Source: a virus. From it: DNA of 64,000 nt. The stretch is from the IMG/VR virus record IMGVR_UViG_3300018080_008188, positions 1-64,000 of that record; one strand, given 5' to 3'. Both the position numbers and the translations under genes were made by a program. Positions 4,588 through 35,912 of the stretch are shown here, piece by piece. The notes under the pieces are model-generated. The model searched no databases, was not told where the DNA came from, and worked only from the letters and a program-made list of their open reading frames with translations. Each line of letters opens with the position of its first letter. Position 1 is the first letter of the stretch.

Positions 4588-6169
4588 AAAGCTGATGCTG
4601 GCAAAGCTGGCTTCCATGTCGCATTTTCTGGACGACGCTGGTTTGTATGCGGACGCTGACATCATCGATGCGACTATTAAGCGCATTGCAAGCAAACCTG
4701 GCAATCTGGAAATGCTGAAGGAGGCCGGATTTTGGCGCAACATCATGAAGCGAATTTCAGGAAGAGCCAGGCGCATCCTCGAAAAGAGTTATCGCAACAT
4801 GTACAGCCGCGCTTTGGAATCGCAGAAGCAGATGGAAGTCGGTCTTCAGAGCATGTTGGAAAAGGCTAAAGAACTAAGGAAACCGCTCAAATTGTACGAC
4901 ATCGGCGGATGGCAGCGTGGCGTGGCATCTGTCCTAACCGGGGTCAACATTCCGAATTTCGTTGCGTATCACGATTTCCAGCAGGCCTTTAACACCTACC
5001 AGAAGGAAATGAGCCAGCAGCTCACCGGCGGTGAGATAGGCGACATTGGTGGGGAAGGCATTCAGCCGGTTCCGGAATTCGGCGAGGAGCCTGCGGCACC
5101 CGCTTCGGAAGGGGAGTCTGCCGGTCCCCAAGAGCTTCCGGGAGCCGAGTTTCTCAGAAGGCGTGAAAGAGAGGAGGGGGATGTGCCCGTACAGCAGCCT
5201 TATTTGCGCCAGCTGTGGGAGGAGTCCGAAAGGCCCGTGTCTTCGCTTCCGGTTCAGGAAGAGCACAAGCCCCCTTTCGCGGGCGGGGACGAGCCTGAAG
5301 AAGCGGGCGAACTGCCAAAATTGCCTGATGAACTTCCAGGTCCTGGAGAAGCGCCTGAGGTTGCCAAGGAACTTCCTGAGAAGGAGCCGGAAGCGGCACC
5401 CGAGCCTCAAGCTGAGCTGAAAACTACTCCCGGTGAGCCTGCGGCAGAACCTGAAGCCGCAGAGGTTGCTTGGGAAGAAGAGCCTGAAGTTCCGGAGGCG
5501 CCGGAAGAAGCCAGCATGACCGAAGAAGAGAAAGATGCTGCCGAGCCGGAAGTGCCCGAGGAAGCTACCGACGAGGAAGGCGAGGAGGTTAGGGAGGAAC
5601 AGTGGACGGAGCGGGTTTTCAGCGGAGTTAAAAAGAGTTCGCGCAAGATACCTGTGGAAGTGTCGTCCGACGGCACCAAGATGCGTATGCCTTTTAAAGA
5701 CTACAAGAGGTTCGTCATGGGCATCAATGCCGATAGCCTCCCCGAAGCCGCCAGAAAGGCCGCCGGCAAAAACCGGCCGTTTCGCGAGACCGCGGATGGA
5801 ATAGTTCCCAACTGGGGCACTGCTCCGGACCAGCTAATAATGTTTATGGGTCCGGTATATTGGGACTCCAAGGTCGTCGACAACTACATAGTTATGAGCA
5901 GGACAGACAAGCCGCTTGACTGGGAGCAGGCGCCGGAGAGGCAGAGGGCGTTGTTCAGCCGGCATCTTGAGGAGCTTGAGAAGGCAAAGCGCGAAGCTGC
6001 GAAAAGAAAGGCCAGGATCATGCGAATCGCCGCGGACTATGAAGAAGCCGAAGGGGAAGACGACGGGGACCAGGAGAATCCAATCGACGCGCTTTCGGAA
6101 GCCGCCCGCGAGCTTCTTGGACAAAGCTCTGTGCGCATGACCGATATCGTTAGGATAGCGCGTTCGTAG
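4574..6169 (+). CDS. acidic Glu/Pro-rich putative head-internal protein
   Basis: ATG at 4574 after GGAGGGG. Carries the shared helical motif near the N-terminus (LASMSHFLDDAGLYADADIID). Confidence 0.75.
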   Translation: MTTNKKLMLAKLASMSHFLDDAGLYADADIIDATIKRIASKPGNLEMLKEAGFWRNIMKRISGRARRILEKSYRNMYSRALESQKQMEVGLQSMLEKAKELRKPLKLYDIGGWQRGVASVLTGVNIPNFVAYHDFQQAFNTYQKEMSQQLTGGEIGDIGGEGIQPVPEFGEEPAAPASEGESAGPQELPGAEFLRRREREEGDVPVQQPYLRQLWEESERPVSSLPVQEEHKPPFAGGDEPEEAGELPKLPDELPGPGEAPEVAKELPEKEPEAAPEPQAELKTTPGEPAAEPEAAEVAWEEEPEVPEAPEEASMTEEEKDAAEPEVPEEATDEEGEEVREEQWTERVFSGVKKSSRKIPVEVSSDGTKMRMPFKDYKRFVMGINADSLPEAARKAAGKNRPFRETADGIVPNWGTAPDQLIMFMGPVYWDSKVVDNYIVMSRTDKPLDWEQAPERQRALFSRHLEELEKAKREAAKRKARIMRIAADYEEAEGEDDGDQENPIDALSEAARELLGQSSVRMTDIVRIARS

Positions 6170-6177
6170 GAGGAAGC

Positions 6178-16141: not shown

Positions 16142-16822
16142 ATGCTTATCAAGCTAGCGCGCATTGTGAAGCGCAAGGGAAAATGGTGCGTTATCGGCCA
16201 CAAGAAGGGCAAGGGCGGCAAGCACAAGGTTTTTGGCTGCTACAACAGCAAGGAAAAAGCCAAGAAGCGCCTTGGTCAAATATATTTCTTCAAGAGCCAT
16301 GGTGCTTTGGACAGGCTGCTTGAAGCCGCAGACGAGATGGACAGCAGGGGAATGCTTCATCTTGCGGACGCTGTCGAAGCATGCGTGGAAACCGTTGTGT
16401 CCATGGGGCTTGACGACGGAAATCCGGCGTCGGTGAGAATCGGGAAGATCGTATCCTTGCTTGAGAAAAGGGGCGAGCACGATCTTGCCGAAAAGGTGGA
16501 TGCCGCGGTGCCGGACATCATAGACGTCGAATCTGGAAGGGAGTGCGGAGAGTGCCCGGACATGGAGGTTTTCGCCATGTCGCGGCGCATTGGCGGATCT
16601 TTCGTAAGGACGGCTGACAGAATGTACAAGACGGCCATTGAACTGCGGCGCATATGGAACGAAGGTGCGGTGGGCGATGACAGCTTCGAGCACAGGAAAA
16701 TGCGCGAGTTGCGCTGCGTGCTGAAGACGGGGTTTCTCGCCCCGCCGCCGCCGGGCTGCAAGGTGCCGAAGGGGTTTGTAAGCTGGTGGGACTATTTCAA
16801 CAAGGCAGGGGACAAGGAATGA
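16142..16822 (+). CDS. putative head-internal protein with a basic N-terminal domain and two helical motif copies
   Basis: IVKRKGKWCV...FGCYNSKEKAKKRLGQIYFFK followed by two copies of the shared motif. Confidence 0.75.
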   Translation: MLIKLARIVKRKGKWCVIGHKKGKGGKHKVFGCYNSKEKAKKRLGQIYFFKSHGALDRLLEAADEMDSRGMLHLADAVEACVETVVSMGLDDGNPASVRIGKIVSLLEKRGEHDLAEKVDAAVPDIIDVESGRECGECPDMEVFAMSRRIGGSFVRTADRMYKTAIELRRIWNEGAVGDDSFEHRKMRELRCVLKTGFLAPPPPGCKVPKGFVSWWDYFNKAGDKE

Positions 16823-17439
16823 AACCAGAAGAGAAAGCCAGGGTGATTGAGGCGGACCTGCACAACCGCCTTGCCGATGCGGCTACGGCTGTTAGAGACG
16901 CCGTGCGCTTGCTCGCCGAAGCCGGCATGAGCCGGCAGAATGCAGAGCGGTCGATTATGGAGCTGCTTGAAGACGAGGTGTCGTTCGGAAAGGAGTCCGA
17001 AGAGGTGGGCGAGCTTGCGCGCATGGCAGAGCAGCTTGACTGCGACGGCCACTTCGAGGCGGCGGACGCCATGGATCGCCTGATGTACAAGAAGACGGCT
17101 GCCATCGAGCGCATGCGCAAAATGGCGGAATCCGCAGCGCTCGGAGAGTTCGGCGTTTCCGAAGACGACCAGGAGACCTACGATGTCGTAGCCGACAGCA
17201 TCCACAACATGCGCGGGGTCGACATCAGGGCGCTTGCGGGAATGTCCGAGGAGCTGAGGGGCGCGCTTTCGGGCATGACGGCTGACATGATGCGGCTGCT
17301 GGACAAGGTCCTGCAGCACAGCGGATCCGAGACCAAGGTTGGGTCGGTCGTCTCCAAGCTCGAGGAATACTACAAGTGGTGCTTTGCCAAAATTGCCGCT
17401 GCATCCAAGATTTCCGTGGGACCGTCGGAAGAGGAATAG
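16819..17439 (+). CDS. putative head-internal helical protein
   Basis: ATGA overlap with AAGGA RBS; motif ELARMAEQLDCDGHFEAADAMD. Confidence 0.7.
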   Translation: MKPEEKARVIEADLHNRLADAATAVRDAVRLLAEAGMSRQNAERSIMELLEDEVSFGKESEEVGELARMAEQLDCDGHFEAADAMDRLMYKKTAAIERMRKMAESAALGEFGVSEDDQETYDVVADSIHNMRGVDIRALAGMSEELRGALSGMTADMMRLLDKVLQHSGSETKVGSVVSKLEEYYKWCFAKIAAASKISVGPSEEE

Positions 17440-17440
17440 C

Positions 17441-21832: not shown

Positions 21833-22781
21833 GCAGAGAAAATGCTCGGTATGCGGAAATGTCCCCAAAAGACCTTTTGCGGTAAGGAGCCCTGCGGTGT
21901 GCAGGGCGTGCTATTCGAAAAGCAGGCATAAAAAGGAAACCTGTTTTTGTTGCGGAAGGCTCTGGTGGGTGGCAAAGAGGCAGGATGGAAAGCCTATTTG
22001 CCGAAAATGCGCATGGAGACAGTATTCGAGGCCAACGGGCGTTTGCCTGTTGTGCGGAAAAGAAGCTGAGATCCACTCAAGAACATCAGATGGGCACCCA
22101 GTCTGCGGTCGATGTCATGCCAGACCGAAAGCAAAGTGCTCATCATGCGGACGGGTCAGGCGCATAAATTCCAGGAACAGCGGCAGGCCAATTTGCGCCA
22201 GCTGCTATGTGGCTCCGGAGGCCACCTGTGTAGAATGCGGACTTGTGAGACCAATACATGGCAACGGAAAGTGCGCTTCTTGCTATCGAACGCCCAAAGA
22301 GAAATGCGGCAAATGCGGCAAAATAAAAGCCGTACATGTGAGAAAGAAAGGCAAGCCGCTTTGTATTACATGCTATGACCCTCCGAAACGAGCCTGCTCG
22401 GCCTGCGGAAAAGTGAGAATGCTGAAGACCAGGGGCATATCGGAGCTTTGCCCAAGCTGCTACTGCAAGAGGCGAGAAGAGGCTGACCCTGCGCTGAAAG
22501 TGATAAGGCGGCTGAGAGTAAGGCTGCGCCACGCCTTTAGGTCATATTCCGAACACGGCAAGGTTAAAAAGTCGGATGAATACGGGATAGACTACAGGGC
22601 CATATGCGAGCATCTTGGTTCTTGTCCTGGGAAGTGGGGAGACTGGCACATAGACCATATCGTTCCGCTTAGTTTTTTCGACTTTGACGATCCAGAGCAA
22701 ATCAAGAAAGCGTTTGCTCCGGAAAATCACCGATGGGTTACCGCCGCAGAAAACCTGAAAAAAGGAGCGAAAATGCCATGA
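21825..22781 (+). CDS. HNH endonuclease with tandem CxxC Zn-ribbon repeats (putative free-standing homing endonuclease)
   Basis: About 7 CxxC...CxxC units, then WHIDHIVPL...NHRWVTAAENLKKG. Confidence 0.85.
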   Translation: MPEQRKCSVCGNVPKRPFAVRSPAVCRACYSKSRHKKETCFCCGRLWWVAKRQDGKPICRKCAWRQYSRPTGVCLLCGKEAEIHSRTSDGHPVCGRCHARPKAKCSSCGRVRRINSRNSGRPICASCYVAPEATCVECGLVRPIHGNGKCASCYRTPKEKCGKCGKIKAVHVRKKGKPLCITCYDPPKRACSACGKVRMLKTRGISELCPSCYCKRREEADPALKVIRRLRVRLRHAFRSYSEHGKVKKSDEYGIDYRAICEHLGSCPGKWGDWHIDHIVPLSFFDFDDPEQIKKAFAPENHRWVTAAENLKKGAKMP

Positions 22782-25700
22782 CGATTGTGAAATTTGCGGA
22801 ATCGCAATTCACATCCGACCAGATTCATACTCCAGATATTGCGCTTGCCGACGATCTGGTTCGCAGCAGGTTTCTACACAAGGTGGCCGCCCTGAAGAAA
22901 GTGGCTCCAAAAGCCAATGATTTTGTATATTTTTCATGCGTAATGATGCACAGCGGCGAAGCCGCATTGGTCGACCAAGCTACGGGCGAGCCGAAGCTCG
23001 GAAGCAACGGAAAACCGCTGACTTCGGAATGGATTATTGACAAAAAAGGGTCATGGAAATGGAAATGTAGCGATCCCAATGTGTTGCCATACAAAAACAA
23101 TAACGGTGACATATTCCCCGAATCGGAACTGAAGAAAGCTTATCGCCTGTGGGTCGGAAGACCGCTTTGTAAGGACCATCAGAGCAGTTCCGTAGATGGC
23201 GTGCGCGGCCTGGTCGTCGACACATACTGGGACGACAAGTACAAGCGCGTCGTCGCGCTGTGCGCACTGGACAAGATAAACTATCCGGATCTTGCAAGGA
23301 AAGTTTCCACCGGTTATGCGACAAATGTGTCCATGGGTACTGCAGTCGGTAAGTCCATCTGCTTCGAATGCGGCAACATTGCGCGCACCGAAGCCGAATA
23401 CTGTCTCCATGTAAAGGGCAAGACGACTTACGGCGAGATCAACATCGACTTGTCGCCAATCGAGCTGAGCATTGTCGTGACTGGCGCCGATCCCGGCGCC
23501 AAGCTGCGCAGCGTGATCGCAAGCCTGAACAAGTATTCCAAGGAGAAGGTCAACCAGGTGGAGCAGCTCAGAACGGCCGGATGTGTTGTCCCTGGCGAGG
23601 TGGACAGGCTTGAGAACGAGATAGGGGAACTGAAGCGCCAGCTTTCGCTGGCCGGCTCTGCGATTTCAAAAAAGGCTCTCGACGACGAGAGCAGCACAAA
23701 GATAAGGAACCTCATGGCGGTCATCGACAGCCCGAACGCGTCCGCCGACGCGAAGTCGATGGCCAACAGGCAGCTGATCCAGGAGCTTTCGGAAGACATG
23801 TCGCCTGGAGAGCTTGCCGCCGGAGAGGCGGGCACACCGGCAGCGTCCGAAGCTGGACGGGCGCCGGCGGTTTCCGAAGCAAACACTCCCTACGGCATGG
23901 CGGGAAACTACGCCATGACGGGGGGAAGGGGCGATGCCACGCAGGACCCCCATTCCAGCGGGCCGGTGCCGCACTGGTCCCTTGACGGGCGAGAGTCGCG
24001 TCTCGCCGAAATGGGCTTGGGTGCCCAGGTTCTGGTTATCCAGAGCAGATTGGATGCCATGGAGAAGGCGTTGCATGACATGCCAGGGAGCATCCGAGCA
24101 ACCGCCAGCAGCAGGACAAACAAGGAGGAAAACAACATGTCCAAGCTTGAAGAGAGGGCTCGCGCCCGTCGCGCGCTGTTCGACAAGAAAGCGTACCACC
24201 AGGGAGGCGGCGGAGTCAACGACCCGCAGACCTATCCGGTCGATCCGACGAACGACCAGCTGAAGACCAAGGGAGACAAGCAGATGGATGGACAGGGCCT
24301 GGAGCCCGGGTCCGACGGACTGCATCCCGGATACCAGAGCTACGGTAACGAGCTGGAGCTGAAGAAAAAGCTGTCCCGCGCCGAGCTGGAGCAGCGCAGG
24401 CTGCGCCGCGAGGCTCTTCTGAGCCAGGGCGAGGATAAGTTTTTCTCCGACGGGAACAATGTGTACAAGCGCGATGTGAGCGGAAACGTAACGCAGCTCA
24501 AGGAGATTCCGAAGCCTGCCATGTCGGCGGACGACGATCACGATCCGGATGAGCCGGTCGATCCGGCCGACCTTCTGAGCCAGGCGTACTGGCAGGGTGG
24601 CGGCGGAGTCAATGAGCCGCAAACCTATCCTGTCGACCCCATGAATGACAGCCTCAAGACTGATGGCGACAAACAGATGGAGGGTCAGGGAATGGAGCCC
24701 GGCAACGACGGAGTCCATCCAGGCTACCAGAGCTACGGCAACGAGGAGGCTCTTCGCAAGCGCCTGCTTCGCGCCGATCTGCGCGCTGAGTTCATAAAGG
24801 TTTTCGCAAACCATGAAAAGTCCGATATCAACAAGCAGGCCAGCCGCTGGGACGTGTATGCCGACGGCGAGAAAGTCATGACCGTCAAGGGCGGAGAGGC
24901 CTACGACGGCGAGTTCCTGGGACAGTACTGGGATTTCTTCTCGTCCAAGGACTACGGCAGAAGGCTGATGGCCGAACTTCGAGACAAGGGGCTTAGCAAA
25001 GTGGCTTACGAGCTGACCGGTCGCATCGTGACGGCGCAGCCCCCGATTCCAGCGCCTCCGGCTCCCGAAGCCGCAGCGCCTCCGGCGCCTCCGCTTCCGG
25101 CCGAAGAGCCCGCGCTTTCCGAAGGCGAGGAGCCGGCTGACGCAGAAAAGACCAAGGACGAGGTGGATGATGCGCTAAAGAAAGTCGAAGAGGATCTTGC
25201 GCACCTGAAGAGCCTTTTGGGTTCAGAAGGCGTGGCAACCAAGGGAAAGGAGGAACTTCCTCCTATCGAGGAAACCGTCCCGGCAACCGCTTCGTCAGAA
25301 ATGCAAATTCGCGTAGCTGAGCTGATCGAGGGTCTCGACAACTCCGGCGACGAGCTGGCGCTCCTGTCCGAGACGCTTGGAAGGAAACTGCAGCCCAAGA
25401 GCGAGGAAGAGGTAGCAGCGCGCGACGAGTTGGTGCAAATTGCGCGTGAATCGCTGGACGCGTGCGGCGAGCTTCGCAAGGACGCCGCGCTCGTGCTTGA
25501 AGCTGCCAAGGAAGAAGAAGGCGACGACAAGAAAGAGAAGGAAGACGATAAAGATAAGGACCTGCCCCCATTCATGAAGAGGAAGAGGGGCAAAGGCAAG
25601 GAAGAGGAAAGCGAGAAGAAGGAAGACAAGAAGGATAAGAAAGAAGAGGAGAAGGAAGAGGATAAGAAAGAAGACGAGAAAGACGACAAGAAGGAAGACA

Positions 25701-26803
25701 AGAAGAGCGAAGCGGAGCTGAAGCTGGAGCGCATGCTCGAAGCGCGCGCCGCAAAGCGGCGCCGGATGGTGCGAATTGCGCTTGGCGCCGAAGAGGCCGA
25801 AGGGCTTTCCGAACGCGTCGAGGCTCTTGAGGAGCTGGAGGAGAAGGAGCACGACATTCCCCTCGGTCCCGAAGAGAAGACTCCGGAGCCCGCTGCCGAG
25901 GACGACGACGATGAGCTTCTTGCCAAGCTCCTGTCTGAGTTCGAGGAAGAGGAAAAGAAAGAGGATGAGGAAGGCGAAGAGGACTTCGAGGACGAGCCGG
26001 AGCTTGACGCTTTTGACGGCGGTCTGATGGCAGATGCTGCGCAGCGCAGGGAATGGCGCGAGAAGCTGGCGTCCGACATGGAGAAAATGGCTGCTGGCGA
26101 CTACCAGCTGAAGCTGGACCCTGCCGCTGACATGGACACAGACATGGTTCCTGCCGCGCATCCGCAGGGCGGTTATTCGCTTGAGGGTCTGGACACCTCT
26201 CCTTCCGACGAGGGGCACAAGATCGAACGCATCGACGAGATCAAGGCCAAAATCATGAAAGCAGTCGAAAGCCTTCCTCCGGTGCGCGAGGCTGTCGAGC
26301 GCGTCGGTGACTTGCTGAAGTCCGGTGCGCTGATTGAAGCCGATCTTGGCGACGAGGCGAAGCTCAAGGCTCTTGCCGTCGATCCGGAAGCCGCAAAGTA
26401 CTGGAGCCAGTACTTCGGCGAAGGCGACCAGGCAAGCAAGCAGTTCGGTCAGGAGCTGACCAAGGAGTTCGTCCAGAAGAAGGCGAGCGCCGATGCCGAC
26501 ACATACCGGATCAAACTGGCTAGGGCCTATGATGTTGCTCTTGAAATGCAGGACAAGGGCATGATTGACGGTCAGAACGATCTGCACACCCAGGTTCACG
26601 AGCTGATGGAGTTCGACGACAAGGCTTTCGAGGCTTTCAAGAAGTCCATCGACCGGTTCCCCGGAACCGGAGGCTCGGTCCGAACCGCGAGTGCCGGAAA
26701 GGCGATCGAGGTCGGAGTTCAGAACGAAGTCGGAGAAGGCGGCCATGCTGCCATGGCTGATGACGCAGTGTCGCTTGCCAGCCAGCTGAAGCGAATTTGG
26801 TAG
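22778..26803 (+). CDS. prohead maturation protease fused to scaffold protein
   Basis: NNNGDIF, KDH (His), NVSMG (Ser), CFEC/C..H, ELSIVVTGADP; then long acidic/coiled-coil and K/E/D-rich segments; lies upstream of the capsid genes. Confidence 0.8.
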   Translation: MTIVKFAESQFTSDQIHTPDIALADDLVRSRFLHKVAALKKVAPKANDFVYFSCVMMHSGEAALVDQATGEPKLGSNGKPLTSEWIIDKKGSWKWKCSDPNVLPYKNNNGDIFPESELKKAYRLWVGRPLCKDHQSSSVDGVRGLVVDTYWDDKYKRVVALCALDKINYPDLARKVSTGYATNVSMGTAVGKSICFECGNIARTEAEYCLHVKGKTTYGEINIDLSPIELSIVVTGADPGAKLRSVIASLNKYSKEKVNQVEQLRTAGCVVPGEVDRLENEIGELKRQLSLAGSAISKKALDDESSTKIRNLMAVIDSPNASADAKSMANRQLIQELSEDMSPGELAAGEAGTPAASEAGRAPAVSEANTPYGMAGNYAMTGGRGDATQDPHSSGPVPHWSLDGRESRLAEMGLGAQVLVIQSRLDAMEKALHDMPGSIRATASSRTNKEENNMSKLEERARARRALFDKKAYHQGGGGVNDPQTYPVDPTNDQLKTKGDKQMDGQGLEPGSDGLHPGYQSYGNELELKKKLSRAELEQRRLRREALLSQGEDKFFSDGNNVYKRDVSGNVTQLKEIPKPAMSADDDHDPDEPVDPADLLSQAYWQGGGGVNEPQTYPVDPMNDSLKTDGDKQMEGQGMEPGNDGVHPGYQSYGNEEALRKRLLRADLRAEFIKVFANHEKSDINKQASRWDVYADGEKVMTVKGGEAYDGEFLGQYWDFFSSKDYGRRLMAELRDKGLSKVAYELTGRIVTAQPPIPAPPAPEAAAPPAPPLPAEEPALSEGEEPADAEKTKDEVDDALKKVEEDLAHLKSLLGSEGVATKGKEELPPIEETVPATASSEMQIRVAELIEGLDNSGDELALLSETLGRKLQPKSEEEVAARDELVQIARESLDACGELRKDAALVLEAAKEEEGDDKKEKEDDKDKDLPPFMKRKRGKGKEEESEKKEDKKDKKEEEKEEDKKEDEKDDKKEDKKSEAELKLERMLEARAAKRRRMVRIALGAEEAEGLSERVEALEELEEKEHDIPLGPEEKTPEPAAEDDDDELLAKLLSEFEEEEKKEDEEGEEDFEDEPELDAFDGGLMADAAQRREWREKLASDMEKMAAGDYQLKLDPAADMDTDMVPAAHPQGGYSLEGLDTSPSDEGHKIERIDEIKAKIMKAVESLPPVREAVERVGDLLKSGALIEADLGDEAKLKALAVDPEAAKYWSQYFGEGDQASKQFGQELTKEFVQKKASADADTYRIKLARAYDVALEMQDKGMIDGQNDLHTQVHELMEFDDKAFEAFKKSIDRFPGTGGSVRTASAGKAIEVGVQNEVGEGGHAAMADDAVSLASQLKRIW
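24194..24775 (+). repeat. 63-aa internal duplication in the scaffold (24194-24382 and 24587-24775)
   Basis: Y(H/W)QGGGGVN(D/E)PQTYPVDP.ND.LKT.GDKQM.GQG.EPG.DG.HPGYQSYGNE..L.K.L.RA occurs twice. Confidence 0.95.
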
Positions 26804-27294: not shown

Positions 27295-27987
27295 ATGACC
27301 CTGAAGTCCTACCATGCCAACGACATTGCTGCCGCGATGTCTGGCATTCTTGAAGACGAGAGCTTTGCCGGACTCTATCGCACGGCATCTCTGGAACAAA
27401 AGGCTGAAGACAAGGGAGAGAAGAAACCGTGCGGCTGTTATGTCGCGGACGGTCCGTGTGTTCACGACGGGCTTGTGGCGGACGATGCCGTTTCCGAAAC
27501 GCCTGCGGAAAAGCCCGGAGAAGAGGCTCCGGCATGCGACGCCGGAGACATTCAGCTGGCGATTGCAATCGATTTCGCAGTAGAACGCCTTTCGAAGGTG
27601 GCTGGAGCGCTGGACAAATCCGGATTCGCCGGAGTGGCCGACAAGATCGACGCTGTAATTTCCAACCTTTCCGACAGCCGCCCGAAAGTTGCGATTGCTG
27701 CCGCCAAAAAGGGCAAGAAGAACGGAAAGGGCGGAGACGGAAAGCCCGGGCGTTCTTACAAGGAGTGGCTGAAGGCTCTTCCTGACGGCAAGGACAAAGA
27801 AGCCTTCCGGAAGCGCTATGAGGGCGCTATGGAAACCGCCAAGAAAAAAGGCATGAAAAAGAAGGACGCCGAAGAATACGCCGCGCGTACGGCTATCGAC
27901 AAGCTGCCGAAAAAGTACCTCAAAGAGCCGACCGGAGTCCACGGACCGGGAAAGAGCGGTCCAAAGGTCAAGAAGGGAAAGAAGTAG
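27295..27987 (+). CDS. putative head-internal protein with a Lys-rich C-terminal domain
   Basis: GAGGAGG RBS; shared helical motif; strongly basic tail. Confidence 0.75.
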   Translation: MTLKSYHANDIAAAMSGILEDESFAGLYRTASLEQKAEDKGEKKPCGCYVADGPCVHDGLVADDAVSETPAEKPGEEAPACDAGDIQLAIAIDFAVERLSKVAGALDKSGFAGVADKIDAVISNLSDSRPKVAIAAAKKGKKNGKGGDGKPGRSYKEWLKALPDGKDKEAFRKRYEGAMETAKKKGMKKKDAEEYAARTAIDKLPKKYLKEPTGVHGPGKSGPKVKKGKK

Positions 27988-27996
27988 GAGGCCGTC

Positions 27997-28380
27997 ATGA
28001 AAAACTCGGACCAGATTGTAGCAGGAATGGTTGCTCTGCTTGAGGACAGCGGTGTTCTTGAAAAGAAGGCCTCCGGCGACGAACTTGTGGCGATTGCCGG
28101 ATCGCTTGTCCGCGTGGCAGACCTTGCCGACGCCGCAGGCGCCCCGGATGTTGCCGATGCAGTTTCCATGGCTCTCGGAAACCTCGCTGAAAAGGGCGTG
28201 GAAGCCGAAGTTGCAATGCCAGGCGCTGACGCCGAGTTGACGGCTCCGGACCTTGTTCTAAAGGCGGAAGCCGACACACTGATCAGGATCGCCGACAGGC
28301 TCGACAAGATGGGGCATGAGGAAGCCGCGTCCGCATTGGACATTGCCCTTTCGCATCTGGGCGAAAGGCTTTCGGGCTAG
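27997..28380 (+). CDS. small protein made mostly of two shared helical motifs
   Basis: LVRVADLADAAGAPDVADAV and LIRIADRLDKMGHEEAASALD. Confidence 0.75.
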   Translation: MKNSDQIVAGMVALLEDSGVLEKKASGDELVAIAGSLVRVADLADAAGAPDVADAVSMALGNLAEKGVEAEVAMPGADAELTAPDLVLKAEADTLIRIADRLDKMGHEEAASALDIALSHLGERLSG

Positions 28381-28416
28381 TTCGCAGCTCCTCTGGCTGT
28401 GGGAAAGGCATCAGAA

Positions 28417-29112: not shown

Positions 29113-29122
29113 GGAGGCGCGC

Positions 29123-29665
29123 ATGTCTTTTGCACGCGAAGACCGCATGGCGTGGGACGCCAGCGAAGTCATGGCGGAGCTGGAGAAAATAGCCAAAGAA
29201 ACCGGTGTGCTGGACGGTCCGCCGCCCGAGGCGTTTCAGCCGATTGTGATTGAAGCGGAAGAGAAAGAGCCGGAGCTGGAGCAGAAGCAGCCGGAGCCGG
29301 TCCAGCCCGCCGACGAGCAGAGGGCGGACGACGCGGGGATCGGAGTCGGGGAGCTTAATGGACTAACAGCCGCGGTCAAAAAAGGCCTAAAGGCTATGGC
29401 GTACAACCTGGCAGATGCCGGGATGATCAAGAAAGCCCATGCTGTTGAGTGCACGCTCAAGGAAATCGAACCCATCTGCGAGAACATCAGAGCCGTTGCC
29501 CAGCGCATTGCACGCATGGGGGACGGTTTTTTGCGTCAGAATGAGAATGTCCTGGCGACGTCTTCGTTCAGGCTGGCGACGTCACTCATGGAGAAGGCGG
29601 CCGAATACGAAGTGAACAAGCAGCAGCAGCAGGAGGAGGACAGCGATGCGCCACATCAAAGCTAG
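29123..29665 (+). CDS. putative head-internal protein
   Basis: AAGGAGG RBS; N-terminal SEVMAELEKIA motif; shared helical motif. Confidence 0.72.
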   Translation: MSFAREDRMAWDASEVMAELEKIAKETGVLDGPPPEAFQPIVIEAEEKEPELEQKQPEPVQPADEQRADDAGIGVGELNGLTAAVKKGLKAMAYNLADAGMIKKAHAVECTLKEIEPICENIRAVAQRIARMGDGFLRQNENVLATSSFRLATSLMEKAAEYEVNKQQQQEEDSDAPHQS

Positions 29666-32600
29666 CGAAAGCGTAGTCATACGGGAGCTTGAAAAAATAG
29701 CGTCCGACATGGGCTGGGTAGTTGAGGAGAAAGCAGATCCCGGGCTTGAAAACGCTGTGCGCGAAAAGGTCAATTCCGTTGGGGCGCTGCTGCCTTCCAA
29801 TGTATCTCTGGAGCATGTGCTGCCGGTGCCCGAAGGCGGAGACGTGAGGCGCGCGCTGGATGTTGTCCGGCACGCCGCCTCCAGGCATGAGGCAAAAGAA
29901 TCCGGCGGAAAATACCGCGCGGCTGTAGAAATGCTTGGTGACAGCAACCTAGATAGGGTTCTTGCCGGCCTTGAGGGTGTCGAAAATATTATCAAGTCTG
30001 CCGAAGTATACAACATGGAAGATGTACTAAGAGATGCCAGAAAACTCGACGAGAAGCGTGGACCGAAACAACAGAAAAGAGTGGATCCGGGTTTGGTGCG
30101 GAAAATTACGAAGCTCTGGAACCAACTTCCCATTCCAGACAAACGCAAATTACTTGGCGGCTTGGATGTAAAATCATGGACGAAGAAATACGGCCCTCTG
30201 ATTGAACATTTTGCTAAACCGCAGAATTTCAAACAACTTCAGCAGACGCACGCACGCTTATCGAATGTTAAAAATGTGGAATTTGGCAAACCCGTTATTG
30301 AGCGTGCCCCATATTCTACTAAAAGAAAAACAAGGAGGACAGGAAATCCAACTCTGGTCAAGGTTCAGAAGTACTTGGTGCGCTGGTTCAAAAACCCGGC
30401 AATACTGGGACCCACCGGTGCTGACGGTTTCTGGGGAAGATATACTGCCAAGGCATGGAACAGGTTCATGAAAGACATAGGAAACACGGCTTTGGCTAAT
30501 AAGGGACCGAAAAATCCTCCGGATCAAGGAAACCTTGAGTGGTTTTTGCATGTAATGCAATATGGCGAAAAGCCGGCACCAAGGCAAACCGAACGGCAAA
30601 CTACGCAACAGCAGTCCGGTCAGCAGCCTGCTGATCTGGGCAGATCATCGCCTTTTGCCTGGCAGTCGAAAGCTCACGACGCGCGCGATTCGCAACTCGA
30701 AAGGTTTGGCGATGCCAAGGAGAATATGATGAGCAGACACGATGGGCGCAAAGTTTCCGTAGCGCAGGACATGCCGGCCGAGCACATTCCCGAAGGCCTT
30801 GCGGGACGTCCCGTCCCCGTCCCTTCGGCTGAAGAGCTTGCCAAGCGCAAACCGCAACAGCAGGCGTTCCAGCCGAAGCTCCCGGACTGGATGAAGGGGG
30901 ACGAGGTTCCGGATGTGGTTCCTGAGCATCTGGTGCAGCCGCGCCAGCCGGAAACCGCGCCAACGGCTTCGCCGTACGCGCAGCTTTCCGGACCCGACCA
31001 GGCGTTTGTCAGAAACAGGGCGCGCCAGCTGGTCGAGATGTCGCGCGGCAGGCTGACTCCGCAGCAGGCGCAGCAGAGGGCGATCATTGAGCTTCAGAGG
31101 CGCAAGGGAGCTTCCGTTGCGCTGGACCTGGTGTCTCTCGCCGGCGACCTTGAAAAGATGGGGGAGCACAAGGCTGCGCGGGCAGTCGATAGGCAGCTGG
31201 CCATCTACAAGGCGGCTCTGGACAGGCTGTACGACATCACTGGAGAGACCGGGGAGCAGCTGATCGACAAAGCCCACCCCGGCGGAGGTCCGACGATGGC
31301 TCCCGCCGCCGACGAGGGCGGAAAGGTGGAGACGATCGTCGAGGAGCAGAGGAAGAACATCGAGCGGGCGACGAAGGCGCCGACCGGCAAGTACGCGTTC
31401 GTGGTGCGGCAGCTCGTTTCGCTGGCCAACCGCCTGGAGGGCGAGGGCAAGGCGAATGCTGTCGCGTCGGTAGACAAGGCTCTCAGGGACATCGAGAGGA
31501 GGGCGTCGCTCCCTTTCGTCGGTAACGCCGGACTGCATAACATTGAGAGGAAAGCTAAGCAGGTCGGTGACGATACCGAGCTTAGGGTGGCGTTCGCCAA
31601 AAAGATACGCTCTCTGAGCGGCAAGGCAGCCAAAATAGAGGGGGCCGTTGAGGACCAGCACTGGATTGGTCCGTCGGAGCGCGAAAAGGATTACTGGATA
31701 TCCTGGAATTTCGGCAGCAGGAAAAGGAACTGCCAGGAATACGACCAGTTTGCCGACGACGCAAAAGAGGCGCTCGCGTGGTGGGCCGTCAACATAGGCA
31801 GCTTTCTCAAAAGCGGCAAAATGAGCAAGCTTGCGGTTTCTGTTCGGCAGATGACGGGCGTGTTCAAGACAATAGGCGAATACTACGAAATCGTAAAAGA
31901 CGACAACTCGCCGAACGCTCTTTACGACGATTTCAAGGCGACGGCCGATTCGATCATTGCGGCCGTAGGCGCGCTGGAGAAGGGAAACAGAAACAAGGCT
32001 TTGGAGTATCTTGGCATCAAGGCAAAGGAAAAAGAAGCGCCAAGCAAGCCCGGCGCTTCTCCGTCTGCCGTAAAAATGCTCGATGCGACAAGCGCCCAGG
32101 CGAAGTACAAGAGTCTGCTGTCCCGCTTCCGGAACGCCCTTCGCAACCCCAAGGACGATGAGAAGCTGCTAAGCGCTTTTTCAAAACGCCATGTCGGGCT
32201 GGATTCCCTTTTCAAATGGATTCAGAAAGAGCTGTCCCAGGTTGACAAGATGTCTGATGCGACGGTAGTCAAGCAAAGGAACATGGTCCGAAAATACATC
32301 AAGCAGCTTGTGCAGCGCGGAGCCATAGCGGTTCAGGCCGGCAACAGAAGCGATCTCATCAGAAAGCTCGCCGAGAAGCCTGCGCAGACTGCTCCGCAGC
32401 AGCCCAAGGGCCAGTCGGGAGGTCTGCCAGAATTGGCTACCGGAAAACCCAGGAGGGTGCCGACCGGCCAGCGACGTAGGCCGAGAGTACAGTACGACGC
32501 CGATGTGGCGCGCCTACAGGTCATGATGGCCAAGGCAGGATACCGCAGCATGATGCCGACGACTTTCAAAACGGGGAAGCCGGACGGCAAGTGGGGCAAG

Positions 32601-33590: not shown

Positions 33591-34695
33591 CTTCGCACTC
33601 GTTAAGGAAGCCGGCGCCGGAGAGGTTGTCAGATCCGTCATGTCTCGCTTCGGCGAGCAGATAGACAGCATTAGCTTGCGTCGCAAGCCGTTTGAGACCC
33701 TGTTCAAATACATGGGAACAGGTCTGCTGTGGGCTTCCGGGCACAGGATGCTTGCCGTGCTTTTTGGCGCAGCTGAAAGCCTCCTAGGCATCGGACTCGG
33801 AACGGTCGGATCCATGATAGACAAAATGCTTGGCTTTGGCGGAAGCAAGATGCCGCAGGTAAGCGATTCGTCATTGTACGAAAGCGCCAAGGGAACCGTC
33901 GACAGCATCATATCCCGGATCCGCGGCAAGTCGGCTGTTTTCGAGCGACGCCTAATGTCCAAGAATGGCATGTTTGAAATGGACGATCTGCTTGTGGCGT
34001 GGGCCGCCGGAGTCGCGCCGGTTGTGGCGCCAGCGGCGGCCAAGTCTTCCCTCTGGTCTCGCATGGGACGGTGGATTGGGCTTGTGAAAGGAGGGGAGAG
34101 GCTTTCCCTCATAGGGCTGCTGTACGGGCTTCTGAAGGCGTTCAGCGCAGGAGTGCTTGTACATACAGGAATAAGTTTCCTGACCAAAGACGTCCCGGAT
34201 CTGATACGGGGGGTTCCCACTGAGCATGGAAAGGAAACTGGAGCGGGAGACCAGCGTCCTTCTGCGCGCACATTAAGGCGCTATGTCAATTCCGGCAGCG
34301 GAGTGGAGAAAACGATCATTGCCGTTCTTGACTCGCGCTTTCACAGCGGAGGGGTGAAGTTCTCCCGGCTGTTCGAACGCGCGCGAGGCAAAAAGCTCGC
34401 CGGATCGGAAGAGATGCAGGGGATTCTACAGGATGTCGTTTACGAGCATGACGGAATGCCAATAGAGAAGATAGACAGGTACGAAATGTTCGTGGCGCCA
34501 GACCCGGCGGAAATGGCCTCAAGGCTGCTTCCCGAGTATGTCCCGGCGGTATCTGCGGGTGCGCAGCCCGCAGCTTCGCGGAAGAGCCCTGCGGCAAAGC
34601 CGCTTTCCAGGAGAAAAAGAAAGCGGTTCAAAATGACAAGGCAGCAGATAGAGAACAGGCTTGAAAGCCTGCTTTCGGAGGAGATGGCAGCATGA
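33550..34695 (+). CDS. putative internal/ejection protein with hydrophobic helices
   Basis: Hydrophobic Gly-rich segments (MLAVLFGAAESLLGIGLGTVG; LSLIGLLYGLLKAFSAGVLV). Confidence 0.65.
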   Translation: MSLTCVSSSPECSSFALVKEAGAGEVVRSVMSRFGEQIDSISLRRKPFETLFKYMGTGLLWASGHRMLAVLFGAAESLLGIGLGTVGSMIDKMLGFGGSKMPQVSDSSLYESAKGTVDSIISRIRGKSAVFERRLMSKNGMFEMDDLLVAWAAGVAPVVAPAAAKSSLWSRMGRWIGLVKGGERLSLIGLLYGLLKAFSAGVLVHTGISFLTKDVPDLIRGVPTEHGKETGAGDQRPSARTLRRYVNSGSGVEKTIIAVLDSRFHSGGVKFSRLFERARGKKLAGSEEMQGILQDVVYEHDGMPIEKIDRYEMFVAPDPAEMASRLLPEYVPAVSAGAQPAASRKSPAAKPLSRRKRKRFKMTRQQIENRLESLLSEEMAA

Positions 34696-35912
34696 GCTTT
34701 GAACAATGGAACGGAAGCGCGGTCATGGCGGAGTTCGCCAAGAAGGCGGCCGAAAGCGGGCTGATCTCGTCCGACCTGTCACAGACCGGCGGCGGAGACC
34801 TCGTCGGAAATCCGAGCAAGGAAAACCCGGAATTCGTCAGACACAAGCCTACCGAGGACTATGACATTACCGAAGAGACGGGAGAGCAGCTGATCGACAG
34901 GGCGCACCCCAAGCCTGTCACGGTTGCCGACGCACAAGGAAGCGGCGCGCTTGTTGAAAATGTCAACGAACAGCAGCGCCACGATCTGGAAGTAGCCACC
35001 AAGATGCCGCACGGCACGCTCGTCGGCGTACATGCTTCTTTGACCAGGGAGCTGGCGAAAATAGCGGAGGAGCTGGATAGCCGGGGAAAAGAGGCGGCAG
35101 CAGTCCGCGTAGACAAATCCATGAAAAAAGTCGGCGGCATTGTTGGCTCCATTGGCGCCATTGCGATCAACCCGTGGTTTCTGATTCCGGCGCTGGTAGT
35201 CGGTCTTGGCGTGGCGGCAAACTATGTGAACTTTTTCGGATATACCGAGACGCTCAACGAAGATCTCAAAGACCTCATAAACGTGATCGAGGAGTTCGCC
35301 GAAGATTCGGAGCCCGGTCAGATGGCGCGCGACATACTGTCGGACCTAAGGCCGTATGCAAACAGGTTTGCGCGCATTCCGTCTCGCAAGGATGCTGAAA
35401 GCTTCGCGATATTCGTGCGGGATCTGGACAAGTTCGGTCAAATGCTTCCGCAGCTTGAAGCCGACATAAAGATGATGGTCGTTACAAGCGGCGGGGCGGA
35501 CTGGTACAAGTTCGGTCTTGACCAGGAAGCCAGAGTCGTCGACAAGCTCAACAGCGTGAAAAAGTGTTTCAGCAAACTCTCGTCAGTTGCTGGCGCAGCG
35601 GCAACGGTAGGCGCCCAGCAAATCAAAAGGCGGAGAGGCAAAGGCAGGGGTGAAAGGGGGCTTCCAGGCAAAGGAGACCGAAACATCGCCGCCATCCAGA
35701 AGCTCGTAGGAATGCGCCCAACAGGCAGGATGAACGGAAAGACGCAGCAGGCCATCCGCAACGCCGAAAAAAGAATACAGAAGATATTCGACAAGCATCT
35801 TGCGGACAAGGGATGGAATGTGATCGGTCTTTTCCTGCGCGACGACGGGACGACCATGGAAGCAGGAAAGATGAAGGAAATCATGGAACTAGCCGAAAGC
35901 TACATTCTCTAG
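34692..35912 (+). CDS. putative internal/ejection protein with a TM segment and C-terminal PG-binding-like domain
   Basis: IVGSIGAIAINPWFLIPALVVGLGVAA; IAAIQKLVGMRPTGRMNGKTQQAI; shared motifs. Confidence 0.7.
   Translation: MSFEQWNGSAVMAEFAKKAAESGLISSDLSQTGGGDLVGNPSKENPEFVRHKPTEDYDITEETGEQLIDRAHPKPVTVADAQGSGALVENVNEQQRHDLEVATKMPHGTLVGVHASLTRELAKIAEELDSRGKEAAAVRVDKSMKKVGGIVGSIGAIAINPWFLIPALVVGLGVAANYVNFFGYTETLNEDLKDLINVIEEFAEDSEPGQMARDILSDLRPYANRFARIPSRKDAESFAIFVRDLDKFGQMLPQLEADIKMMVVTSGGADWYKFGLDQEARVVDKLNSVKKCFSKLSSVAGAAATVGAQQIKRRRGKGRGERGLPGKGDRNIAAIQKLVGMRPTGRMNGKTQQAIRNAEKRIQKIFDKHLADKGWNVIGLFLRDDGTTMEAGKMKEIMELAESYIL

What the first reader, a model, noticed from the sequence alone, without database searches (positions are those of the whole stretch)
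4600..35125. A shared ~25-aa helical tag on about 10 unrelated head-module proteins: candidate capsid-loading signal
Seen: the consensus L-x-x-[LIM]-A-x-x-L-[DE]-x-x-G-x4-A-x-x-[VI]-D-x-x-[LIM] recurs about 13 times. Positions: ~4607 (LASMSHFLDDAGLYADADIID), 16310, 16440, 17011 (LARMAEQLDCDGHFEAADAMD), 17850, 20342 (LVRLANELDAAGMPEEADRVD), 27586 (LSKVAGALDKSGFAGVADKID), 28102, 28276 (LIRIADRLDKMGHEEAASALD), 29384, 31125 (LVSLAGDLEKMGEHKAARAVD), 31410 and 35049 (LAKIAEELDSRGKEAAAVRVD). Looser variants occur in the scaffold (AELRDKGL; VALEMQDKGM). Carrier proteins are otherwise dissimilar, every copy lies between the portal and the MCP, and I see none downstream of the MCP. Known: T4 internal proteins use a capsid-targeting sequence that the prohead protease removes. 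Inference: this is a portable helix-turn-helix address that docks cargo onto the scaffold or procapsid. I do not recognise it as a described family.
Basis: partly seen in the sequence, partly recalled or inferred. Interest (0 to 1): 0.92.

Follow-up and report, generated by a model that had tools for sequence, protein, structure and literature searches.

The report
Shared hairpin tag on phage head proteins
A two-helix motif of about 30 residues is shared by many otherwise unrelated proteins encoded next to the capsid genes of a group of large uncultured phages; it most likely acts as a docking tag during head assembly, but this has not been shown.

Summary
Of the 13 listed copies, 9 are statistically solid, in 8 proteins. 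Two are marginal and 2 are unsupported. The "scaffold variants" are not detected. All 9 solid copies lie between portal and MCP, and none lies elsewhere in the 134-kb genome. Shuffled and reversed controls give 0 hits.

The motif is L-x3-A-x2-L-D-x2-G-x4-A-x2-[VI]-D-x2-[IL]. AlphaFold2 predicts a helix-turn-helix hairpin with pLDDT of 92-97 over both copies.

It is widespread. A profile search finds 1272 protein clusters at E<=1e-3, and none of the 10 looked up carries a name. Pfam, PHROGs and NCBIfam have no family for it. It usually sits at the extreme N-terminus, the C-terminus or both, on bodies that share nothing else.

In 81 related contigs, 52 copies lie upstream of the MCP and 2 downstream. 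One 94%-complete relative keeps 13 of its 15 copies 65-160 kb from its head genes.

My best reading, at about 0.5, is a portable docking module that recruits proteins into the assembling head. The receptor is unknown and virion association is untested. First-reader notes elsewhere in this scan flagged related "head-cargo" genes on other DNA.

The parts
4598..4693 (+). Motif copy 1, near the N-terminus of ORF 4523-6169. It is at residues ~7-38 if the ATG at 4574, which has a GGAGG-like site upstream, is the true start.
   Evidence: iE 7.7e-11, 1.7e-7, 1.2e-4 with the external profile. Start context.
16430..16525 (+). Motif copy 2, internal in ORF 16142-16822 (residues ~97-128). This is the weakest of the nine.
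   Evidence: iE 3.6e-11, 2.1e-5, but only 0.47 with the external profile and 0.27 in leave-one-out.
17005..17100 (+). Motif copy 3, internal in ORF 16786-17439 (residues ~74-105).
   Evidence: iE 7.5e-14, 8.6e-5 in leave-one-out, 1.2e-3 with the external profile.
20333..20428 (+). Motif copy 4, at the N-terminus (residues 6-37) of ORF 20318-20899. The body of this protein is Cys-rich.
   Evidence: iE 1.6e-12, 1.9e-5 in leave-one-out, 3.3e-6 with the external profile.
27580..27675 (+). Motif copy 5, internal in ORF 27295-27987 (residues ~96-127). The C-terminal tail of this protein is Lys-rich.
   Evidence: iE 2.1e-11, 4.4e-5 with the external profile. Orthologues in L007 and L008 keep the motif.
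28270..28365 (+). Motif copy 6, at the C-terminal end of ORF 27997-28380 (residues 92-123 of 127).
   Evidence: iE 1.1e-12, 9.3e-6 in leave-one-out, 1.4e-7 with the external profile.
31119..31214 (+). Motif copy 7, the first of two in the 1314-residue ORF 29646-33590 (residues ~492-523).
   Evidence: iE 9.3e-11, 4.7e-8 with the external profile. AlphaFold2 gives helix-turn-helix with block pLDDT 95-97. Conserved in 45 family members.
31404..31499 (+). Motif copy 8, the second in ORF 29646-33590 (residues ~587-618). A highly conserved block separates it from copy 7.
   Evidence: iE 5.9e-11, 3.9e-4 with the external profile. AlphaFold2 hairpin H113-130 / H134-151 with block pLDDT 92-97.
35043..35138 (+). 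Motif copy 9, in ORF 34692-35912 (residues ~118-149). A hydrophobic two-segment stretch follows it directly.
   Evidence: iE 3.8e-12, 6.5e-7 in leave-one-out, 1.1e-7 with the external profile. The motif is kept in orthologues about 1.9 kb upstream of the MCP in 8 further contigs. Pfam 2TM hit E 0.0037, below its cut-off.
17846..17893 (+). Marginal half-copy (first helix and the Gly turn only) in ORF 17339-18568.
   Evidence: iE 3.4, 0.77, 0.21.
28099..28164 (+). Marginal degenerate copy in ORF 27997-28380.
   Evidence: iE 0.029, 0.55, 5.3.
29375..29470 (+). Degenerate copy seen only by eye in ORF 29123-29665. The hydrophobic pattern and the Gly are kept; both conserved Asp are lost.
   Evidence: No profile hit at iE<=20. 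The orthologue in L007 scores iE 1.3. Sequence read.
1000..4152 (+). Portal protein gene, interrupted by an intein-like insert. It marks the upstream boundary of the interval.
   Evidence: phrog_16240 portal protein, E 1.2e-50. LAGLIDADG_3 E 1.7e-6 and a weak Hint hit.
22733..26803 (+). Head maturation protease domain (residues ~122-274) fused to a long acidic, scaffold-like tail. The profile finds no motif copy in it.
   Evidence: phrog_18299 head maturation protease, E 4.7e-11. No motif hit. Calling the tail scaffold-like is my inference from its composition.
36803..37828 (+). Major capsid protein. It marks the downstream boundary of the interval.
   Evidence: phrog_2522 major head protein, E 2.1e-76. 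51.7% identity to Bacillus phage G gp27. 72-92% identity in 81 IMG/VR loci.

Best explanation
The motif is a self-contained alpha-hairpin of about 30 residues: helix, a three-residue turn ending in the conserved Gly, then a second helix. It has one conserved hydrophobic face (positions 4, 5, 7, 8, 11, 19/20, 23, 27) and two nearly invariant Asp (positions 12 and 24).

It behaves as a portable protein-protein docking module in a clade of large uncultured phages (130-440 kb) whose MCP is related to that of Bacillus phage G. I propose that it recruits a varied set of proteins into the assembling prohead. It would do so by binding a conserved site on a head component, by pairing with other copies of itself, or both. 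The carriers include likely ejected envelope-acting proteins with peptidoglycan-binding-like and membrane segments.

Shown here: the motif exists, its predicted fold, its portability, its restriction to this clade, and its enrichment next to the head genes.

Inferred, not shown: virion location of the carriers, the identity of the receptor, and any removal by the prohead protease.
For: 1. Significance and location. All 9 strong copies, in 8 of the 22 ORFs that I picked by eye between portal and MCP, lie in 24% of the genome. None lies elsewhere. By my own arithmetic the chance is 0.24^8, about 1e-5, taken per protein.

2. Conservation in relatives. In 81 MCP-anchored IMG/VR loci, 52 hits at iE<=1e-3 lie upstream of the MCP and 2 downstream (467 kb against 464 kb searched). 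None is on the opposite strand, and 26 of the 81 loci have a hit. One contig is counted twice, as L003 and L024.

3. Whole-record scans.
- G007 (442 kb, 100% complete): 6 of 11 copies between portal and MCP, and 3 within 12 kb upstream of the portal.
- G006: 6 of 10 between portal and MCP, 3 just upstream of the portal.
- G009: 5 of 9 between portal and MCP, 3 just upstream of the portal.
- G011: 10 of 10 within 46 kb upstream of the MCP.

4. Tag-like architecture. Among the 150 best of 1272 hits, 71 of the 104 proteins under 800 residues carry a copy starting within their first 10 residues. 31 carry one ending within the last 12 residues, and 19 carry both. The linkers are acidic, at 21% D+E. 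Conservation stops at motif position ~32.

5. Portability. Most window carriers share only the motif. Six N-terminally tagged proteins of one relative share nothing else, with 0 pairs at E<=1e-3. Of 98 small carriers, at most 1 hits any single Pfam family.

6. Fold. The hairpins are predicted with block pLDDT of 92-97. A natural tandem pair is predicted as four helices, with pLDDT 75.8 and pTM 0.54.

7. Clade restriction. Every record in which I found both the motif and an MCP has this MCP type (G000, G001, G006-G009, G011). Phage G, Rctr197k, LR745208.1 and Tunturi_5, whose MCPs are 31-52% identical, have 0 copies in their whole genomes. The same search found copies in 9 of 9 records of the clade.

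8. Carrier content. g29646 has weak peptidoglycan-binding and endolysin-family hits (PG_binding_1 E 0.17, below cut-off; phrog_2649 E 2.9e-4). g34692 has a membrane-like stretch.

9. Precedent in phage G. A protease, an endolysin and a holin-like protein encoded between portal and MCP were detected in particle proteomics. I read this in passages of bioRxiv 10.1101/2024.12.16.628780.
Against: - There is no direct evidence that any carrier is a virion protein. No member of the clade is cultured and no proteomics exists for it.
- In G001 (317 kb, 94% complete) the portal-MCP interval is only 13 kb and holds 0 copies. 13 of its 15 copies lie 65-160 kb away. The 20-kb cluster I read there sits beside a DNA ligase, a hexapeptide transferase and a ParB-like ORF, with no recognisable structural gene among the 19 ORFs scanned.
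- Two of 54 copies lie downstream of the MCP.
- The large enzyme-bearing proteins of the same interval carry no copy: ligase-ASCH-PrimPol, phosphoesterase-ASCH-topoisomerase IB, and the phosphatase. The motif therefore cannot be a general ticket for everything encoded there.
- Some carriers end in an HMG-box-like domain (E 0.0016, below cut-off). That would fit an intracellular DNA-related role equally well.
- No conserved cleavage site flanks the motif.
Confidence: 0.5

Rival explanations
1. The hairpin is mainly a self-pairing module. Copies on different proteins, or the two or three copies on one protein, pack hairpin against hairpin into four-helix units. The carriers would then form one multi-protein network, such as an inner body, a scaffold core or an ejection complex. 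The motif would not address each protein separately to the shell. This overlaps with the best explanation and differs only in the receptor.
For: - Multi-copy architectures are common. 148 of the 150 top hits have 2-4 copies, although the ranking favours multi-copy proteins.
- Many small proteins carry one copy at each end of an acidic linker (19 of 104).
- Eleven proteins share a tandem pair about 10 residues apart. For one of them AlphaFold2 predicts a four-helix arrangement with pTM 0.54.
- The hydrophobic pattern resembles a single TPR-type hairpin, a unit that normally packs against a neighbour. The pattern is recalled. The weak supporting hits are a designed TPR protein at E 0.23 and the last TPR of LapB at E 0.02.
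Against: - No test of self-association was possible.
- In the two-copy g29646 region the relative placement of the hairpins is uncertain (pTM 0.37).
- Five of the eight strong window carriers have a single detectable copy. g16142 and g27997 have only a second weak copy.
Confidence: 0.25
2. The motif has nothing specific to do with the capsid. It would dock a varied set of phage proteins onto some other conserved partner, such as a host factor, a replication or nucleoid structure, or an intracellular phage compartment. Its position next to the head genes would then only reflect inherited gene order in this sub-lineage.
For: - The main cluster of G001 lies far from the head genes, next to a DNA ligase, a hexapeptide transferase and a ParB-like ORF.
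- Some carriers have HMG-box-like C-terminal domains.
- In the window, the first carrier sits directly before a ligase-PrimPol gene.
- Extreme N-terminal placement is also typical of other sorting signals (general knowledge).
Against: - 52 of 54 copies lie upstream of the MCP across 81 loci.
- In 5 of 6 larger records the copies cluster between, or just before, portal and MCP.
- The most conserved carriers are the two genes directly before the decoration and MCP genes. They carry peptidoglycan-binding-like and membrane segments, which fits delivery from the particle.
Confidence: 0.17
3. The motif is a recognition or propeptide element for the prohead protease and has no docking role.
For: - A protease-scaffold fusion is encoded in the same interval.
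- T4 and SPN3US head proteins carry conserved propeptides removed by the prohead protease (passages of PMC5694885).
- After N-terminal copies, positions 30-32 are often Ala-Ala-Glu (20-28 of 69). That would suit proteases that cut after Glu, a specificity I recall rather than tested.
Against: - No sharply conserved site follows or precedes the motif.
- Many copies are internal or C-terminal.
- A folded 30-residue hairpin is far larger than a cleavage site needs to be.
Confidence: 0.05
4. The recurrence is chance or a compositional artefact of Ala/Leu/Asp-rich helical proteins.
For: The motif is short, and the carriers are helical and acidic.
Against: - 0 hits in reversed sequences and 0 in 10 of 10 shuffles.
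- Leave-one-out and the external profile both recover the copies.
- 74 database proteins reach E<=1e-10 against 1.84 billion.
- Positions are conserved in orthologues.
Confidence: 0.01

Closest known systems
T4 capsid targeting sequence (CTS) of the internal proteins and Alt
   Same: A short sequence shared by otherwise different proteins that, in T4, makes them associate with the scaffolding core and enter the prohead. It is portable to foreign proteins (passages of PMC5694885). In the wider family found here, most small carriers bear the motif at the extreme N-terminus (71 of 104).
   Different: The T4 CTS is a 10-20-residue N-terminal propeptide removed by gp21. The motif here is a folded hairpin of about 30 residues. 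It is often internal, C-terminal or duplicated, and there is no evidence of cleavage. I did not compare the sequences.
P22 scaffolding protein C-terminal coat-binding helix-turn-helix
   Same: A helix-turn-helix of about 30 residues with a Gly-containing turn. In P22 it anchors a protein to the inner procapsid surface through the MCP N-arm (passages of PMC9965877). It is used as a fusion tag to load cargo into P22 particles (PMC9962691, seen in the search listing only, plus my recall). The predicted fold here is the same kind of hairpin.
   Different: The P22 element is basic: R293 and K296 bind acidic N-arm residues. It is present once, at the C-terminus of the scaffold. The motif here is acidic, with two conserved Asp, and is spread over many non-scaffold proteins. 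It has no profile similarity to P22 gp8 (score -1.1 bits) or to T7 gp9.
Encapsulin cargo-loading peptides, microcompartment encapsulation peptides and the HK97 protease C-terminal targeting tail (all recalled, no call)
   Same: They follow the same logic: a short terminal element, joined by a flexible linker, directs varied cargo into a protein shell. Encapsulins and HK97 have an HK97-fold shell.
   Different: These are single short peptides or single amphipathic helices, not a two-helix hairpin. There is no sequence relationship. I tested none of them here.
Tetratricopeptide (TPR) repeat
   Same: The spacing of small and large hydrophobic residues and the Gly turn is similar (positions 4, 7, 8, 11, 15, 20, 27; the TPR consensus is recalled). 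The best, non-significant, matches to solved-structure sequences are designed TPR proteins (E 0.23-0.5). TPR proteins also appear among the weak Foldseek rows. The last TPR of LapB gives a weak hit (E 0.02).
   Different: No Pfam TPR model hits at E<=1 on the 10 window carriers. The copies are single or dispersed, not arrays of three or more. Position 24 is an invariant Asp rather than an aromatic residue. None of the matches is significant.

Membership tests
T4-type capsid targeting sequence | N-terminal propeptide of 10-20 residues | tested here: not met
   The motif is about 30-32 residues long. It is N-terminal in 2 of the 8 strong window carriers and internal or C-terminal in 6. In the wider family it is N-terminal in 71 of 104 small carriers. 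The T4 definition comes from passages of PMC5694885.
T4-type capsid targeting sequence | Removed by the prohead protease after incorporation | not testable with these tools
   This needs mass spectrometry of particles. No conserved flanking site was seen.
T4-type capsid targeting sequence | Sufficient to carry a foreign protein into the prohead | not testable with these tools
   This needs an expression or packaging experiment.
P22-type scaffold coat-binding helix-turn-helix | Helix-turn-helix fold of about 30 residues | tested here: met
   AlphaFold2 gives H3-35 / H39-64 and H113-130 / H134-151 with block pLDDT of 92-97. The tandem pair gives four helices. These are predictions, not structures.
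P22-type scaffold coat-binding helix-turn-helix | Sequence relationship to the P22 gp8 C-terminus | tested here: not met
   The motif profile against P22 gp8 scores -1.1 bits. It finds nothing in T7 gp9 or the T7 internal proteins.
P22-type scaffold coat-binding helix-turn-helix | Basic residues that bind an acidic MCP N-arm | tested here: not met
   The conserved charged positions here are Asp12 and Asp24 (40 and 49 of 55 copies). The P22 contacts come from passages of PMC9965877.
P22-type scaffold coat-binding helix-turn-helix | [quoted passage not shown] | tested here: not met
   No copy is detected in the protease-scaffold fusion at 22733-26803. The copies lie on 8 other proteins.
TPR repeat | Significant match to a TPR profile | tested here: not met
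   No TPR family appears among the Pfam hits at E<=1 for the 10 window carriers, at E<=0.1 for 10 small carriers, or at E<=0.001 for 98 carriers. There are only weak resemblances.
TPR repeat | Tandem arrays of three or more repeats forming a superhelix | tested here: not met
   There are 1-2 detectable copies per window protein. Among the top 150 hits there are 2-4 copies per protein, usually separated by long linkers (median 128 residues).
Any curated family (Pfam-A, PHROGs v4, NCBIfam 20) | Profile hit covering the motif above the family cut-off | tested here: not met
   None. The nearest is phrog_35824, of unknown function, at E 0.033 over the motif of ORF 16786-17439.

The most novel reading that the evidence does not exclude
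The hairpin is the address code of a multivalent, self-associating internal protein network in the heads of phage-G-like large phages. Dozens of unrelated proteins, many with a hairpin at each end of an acidic linker, would co-assemble through hairpin-hairpin and hairpin-shell contacts into a core. That core would both help to build the large capsid and be delivered to the host with the DNA. This would be a natural, modular cargo-loading system that could be transplanted onto any protein.
Probability: 0.2. Interest if true: 0.85.

Novelty: new variant of a known kind. Interest (0 to 1): 0.66.

Why it matters
How large phages select and load the many internal and ejected proteins of their heads is poorly understood outside T4. 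In giant phages even the scaffold is uncertain (passages of PMC5694885).

A conserved, portable hairpin found in more than a thousand protein clusters would give a sequence handle for three things:
- predicting the internal proteome of this uncultured clade;
- finding the receptor on the capsid or core;
- possibly loading foreign cargo into HK97-fold shells.

Even if the capsid reading is wrong, this is an undescribed and very widespread interaction module of environmental phages, and it deserves a family entry.

Tried and rejected
1. Co-folding of the MCP (alignment A4, 30 rows) with the motif (A1, 55 rows). The verdict was "no answer", score 0.00 against a mark of 0.32, and the controls were not run. 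This is neither for nor against binding.

2. Fold searches.
- Foldseek of the tandem-pair model against PDB: 0 matches at E<=0.001.
- VIA-align wide: best Z 7.2, generic helical bundles, below the level that means anything for helical models.
- Foldseek of the g29646 region against BFVD: 0 matches at E<=0.001. The best was an uncharacterised protein of an uncultured phage at E 3.9e-3.

3. Sequence searches against solved structures. The motif profile gave nothing below E 0.23. The g29646 central region gave nothing below E 0.23.

4. ESM Atlas with a 74-residue tandem carrier gave only unnamed clusters with scores of 0.79-0.83, below the level that counts.

5. tblastn of a two-copy carrier against 50,697 phage records found no match at E<=1e-3. 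Cluster look-up of 10 carriers found no names, and all were singletons from metagenomes.

6. The head regions of phage G and Rctr197k and then their whole genomes, plus LR745208.1 and Tunturi_5, hold no copy.

7. I looked for a conserved cleavage site or a common flank next to the copies and found none.

8. My simple pattern found none. I did not examine RNA structure.

9. A second shared N-terminal motif in g29123, g29646 and g34692 is only weakly supported. The profile scores E 0.0066 and 0.025 on the first two, and it does not detect g34692.

10. Literature. Six full-text searches and passages of four papers turned up no description of this motif. Word search cannot find a sequence pattern, so this is weak evidence that it is not in print. 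The proteomics table of the phage G preprint and the domain tables of PMC7824862 could bear on this claim.

11. I did not use sequencing-run or read-mapping tools.

Full report
**What the window is.** The window is the first 64 kb of a single 134,081-bp virus contig. All long ORFs lie on the + strand.
- ORF 1000-4152 is a portal protein (phrog_16240, E 1.2e-50) carrying a LAGLIDADG/Hint insert.
- ORF 22733-26803 begins with a head maturation protease domain (phrog_18299, E 4.7e-11) and continues as a long acidic tail.
- ORF 36803-37828 is the major capsid protein (phrog_2522, E 2.1e-76). It is 51.7% identical to gp27 of Bacillus phage G.
- Between portal and MCP I count 22 ORFs, picked by eye from the ORF list and not by a gene caller.

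**Is the motif there?** Yes.
- A regular expression already finds 9 in-frame copies on the + strand and none in the other frames.
- A profile of nine strict copies, searched over all six frames of the whole genome, returns those nine at iE 7.5e-14 to 9.3e-11. It adds three weak extras (28099, 16328, 17849) and nothing else better than iE 4.6.
- Because that test is circular, I ran three controls. Leave-one-out recovers 8 of 9, 5 of them at iE<1e-3.
- A profile made only from 46 copies in other contigs finds 7 window copies at iE<1e-3 and one at 1.2e-3. The copy at 16430 scores only 0.47. The next best hit in the genome is iE 0.99.
- Reversed sequences and 10 of 10 shuffles give no hit at iE<=1.
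- The copies are about 43% identical at the DNA level, and 29% at third codon positions. They are therefore not recent DNA repeats.

The copy at 29384 keeps the hydrophobic pattern by eye but has lost both Asp. The proposed scaffold variants are not detected at iE<=20.

**Anatomy.** In 55 distinct copies the nearly invariant positions are L4, A8, L11, D/E12, G15, A20, V/I23, D24 and I/L27.

AlphaFold2 on a 181-residue piece of ORF 29646-33590, with 45 relatives in the alignment, predicts each copy as helix, three-residue turn, helix. Block pLDDT is 95-97 over copy 1 and 92-97 over copy 2. The segment between the copies, and their mutual placement, are uncertain (pTM 0.37). A natural 74-residue protein made of two adjacent copies is predicted as four helices (pLDDT 75.8, pTM 0.54).

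In the window the motif is N-terminal in 2 carriers (4523/4574-6169 and 20318-20899), C-terminal in one (27997-28380) and internal in the others.

**Are the carriers unrelated?** Mostly. The exceptions are:
- g29646 and g34692 share a 92-residue block that includes one copy (E 9e-17);
- g29123 and g34692 share their N-terminal ~150 residues (E 7e-6);
- g16786 and g27997 share 76 residues (E 4.5e-5).

No carrier has a significant Pfam, PHROG or NCBIfam family. The only hits are weak peptidoglycan-binding and endolysin-like ones in g29646 and a weak two-segment membrane hit in g34692.

**Relatives.** The MCP finds 173 IMG/VR stretches, of which the best 80 were kept. They are 72-92% identical and come from contigs of up to 442 kb.

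The iterated profile finds the motif in 26 of 81 MCP-anchored loci. 52 copies lie upstream of the MCP and 2 downstream, for nearly equal sequence searched (467 kb against 464 kb). None is on the other strand. One contig is present twice.

Orthologues of g34692 keep the copy about 1.9 kb before the MCP, and orthologues of g29646 keep both copies.

Whole-record scans show the copies concentrated between, or just before, portal and MCP:

| Record | Copies between portal and MCP | Just upstream of portal |
|---|---|---|
| G007 | 6 of 11 | 3 |
| G006 | 6 of 10 | 3 |
| G009 | 5 of 9 | 3 |
| G011 | 10 of 10 within 46 kb upstream of the MCP | portal not searched |

The exception is G001 (317 kb, 94% complete). 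Its portal-MCP interval is only 13 kb and holds no copy. 13 of its 15 copies lie 65-160 kb away. The stretch I read there contains six N-terminally tagged small ORFs that share nothing beyond the tag. They lie beside a DNA ligase, a hexapeptide transferase and a ParB-like ORF.

**Wider distribution.** The profile searched against 1.84 billion cluster representatives gives 1272 proteins at E<=1e-3 and 74 at E<=1e-10.

Among the best 150, 46 are 800 residues or longer and belong to the g29646 family, each with two internal copies. Of the 104 shorter ones:
- 71 start with the motif;
- 31 end with it;
- 19 do both.

Their linkers are acidic, with a median length of 128 residues. This list favours multi-copy proteins.

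Of 98 short carriers, no Pfam family is hit by more than one. Ten carriers looked up were unnamed metagenomic singletons.

More distant relatives by MCP (31-52% identity: phage G, Rctr197k, LR745208.1 and Tunturi_5) have no copy in their whole genomes. The same search was positive in 9 of 9 clade records. Every record in which I could find both the motif and an MCP has this MCP type.

**How it most likely works.** A 30-residue hairpin has a single hydrophobic face and cannot be stable alone, so it must pack against something. This is my inference.

Several features point to a modular docking element: terminal placement, flexible acidic linkers, frequent duplication, unrelated bodies, and conservation over a clade whose other head proteins are only about 30% identical. 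Its concentration next to the portal, protease-scaffold and MCP genes points to head assembly. So does its presence on the two conserved genes with peptidoglycan-binding-like and membrane segments directly before the MCP. This matches T4, where a shared sequence brings the internal proteins to the core. It also matches P22, where a scaffold helix-turn-helix docks on the MCP N-arm.

In phage G itself, a protease, an endolysin and a holin-like protein encoded between portal and MCP were found in particles. That makes virion location of the positional counterparts here plausible but not shown.

The receptor is open. Because the motif is so conserved, I favour a conserved partner:
- the MCP, whose first ~46 residues are conserved in the clade and missing from the 282-residue phage G protein;
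- the portal;
- the hairpin itself.

The weak TPR-like resemblance and the tandem-pair model make self-pairing credible.

**What argues against it.** There are no particle data. The distant cluster in G001 is unexplained. Two copies lie downstream of the MCP. The motif is absent from the large enzyme fusions of the same interval. Some carriers have HMG-box-like ends.

**Comparison with known systems.** The motif works like a capsid-targeting or scaffold-docking tag, but it is not a member of either family.
- It fails the defining features of the T4 CTS: length, N-terminal propeptide position.
- It fails those of the P22 element: basic charge, scaffold C-terminus, sequence.
- It is not a detectable TPR.

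I therefore class it as a new variant of a known kind of device.

**Earlier notes of this scan.**
- A first-reader note on this same genome reads 29646-35912 as a candidate ejectosome.
- Notes on two other genomes describe similar clusters before the MCP with "head-cargo motifs" and proposed K-x-A cleavage sites.
- A follow-up on another genome reports a -1 frameshift in a 916-residue head gene.

I treated these as leads only. I saw no common flank, and my simple pattern found no in-frame slippery heptamer after the second copy.

Noticed in passing
window 1000-4152: The portal gene carries an intein-like insert. There is a weak Hint hit at residues ~219-268 and a LAGLIDADG_3 hit at 456-529. 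Portal homology resumes at residue ~603. The relatives G009 and G001 have uninterrupted portals in frames of 674 and 568 residues. G007 and G006 carry an insert at the same place.
   Followed up: partly
window 6178-10404, 13096-15798, 18573-20321: Large multi-enzyme proteins are encoded inside the head module. They are an ATP-dependent DNA ligase with ASCH and a weak LigD PrimPol hit; a LigD 3'-phosphoesterase with ASCH and a type IB topoisomerase; and a protein with below-cut-off hits to dual-specificity phosphatase families, which also has an HExxH-like site seen by eye. None carries the hairpin motif. They resemble the injected 'polyvalent proteins' mentioned in PMC7824862 (passages).
   Followed up: partly
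window 37924-42737: Directly after the MCP come two ORFs of homing-endonuclease-associated HNH repeats (Pfam checked only on the first, PF18780 E 4.4e-51; the second read by eye). They are followed by an N6/N4 DNA methylase that also has one HNH repeat. The stretch 38-40 kb has G+C of 0.44, against about 0.55 elsewhere. This looks like a mobile insertion.
   Followed up: no
window 29123-29200, 29646-29730, 34692-34780; 31215-31400 and 34860-35040: The three carriers 29123, 29646 and 34692 begin with a second shared short helix motif of the form V-M-x-E-F-x-K-I-A-x-x-x-G-W, which is only weakly supported. ORFs 29646 and 34692 also share a highly conserved block between or before their hairpins. 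In the 29646 family this block is the most conserved part of the protein.
   Followed up: partly
G011 (record of L094), 89221-92467: The MCP of this relative is found in three separate pieces spread over 3.2 kb (query residues 2-99, 95-164 and 164-341). This suggests introns or inteins in the capsid gene.
   Followed up: no
proteins P0129, P0111, P0008 (metagenomic carriers): Several small carriers join an N-terminal tandem hairpin pair to a conserved basic C-terminal domain. In P0129 this domain gives a weak HMG-box hit, E 0.0016, below cut-off. It may be a DNA-binding internal protein.
   Followed up: no
proteins P0068, P0071, P0081, P0098, P0118, P0082: Another recurrent unannotated domain accompanies the hairpin in several carriers. 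It is a conserved Gly/Pro/Tyr-rich block of about 50 residues. I did no family search on it.
   Followed up: no
G007 54851-55462: The 442-kb relative holds a second, short portal-like fragment in a 292-residue frame, 41-45% identical to parts of the window's portal. It lies far from its main portal gene.
   Followed up: no
window 21825-22781: This ORF is built of many CxxC zinc-ribbon-like repeats (DZR hit E 0.0067, below cut-off). By eye it ends in an HNH-like motif. It sits between head-module genes.
   Followed up: no
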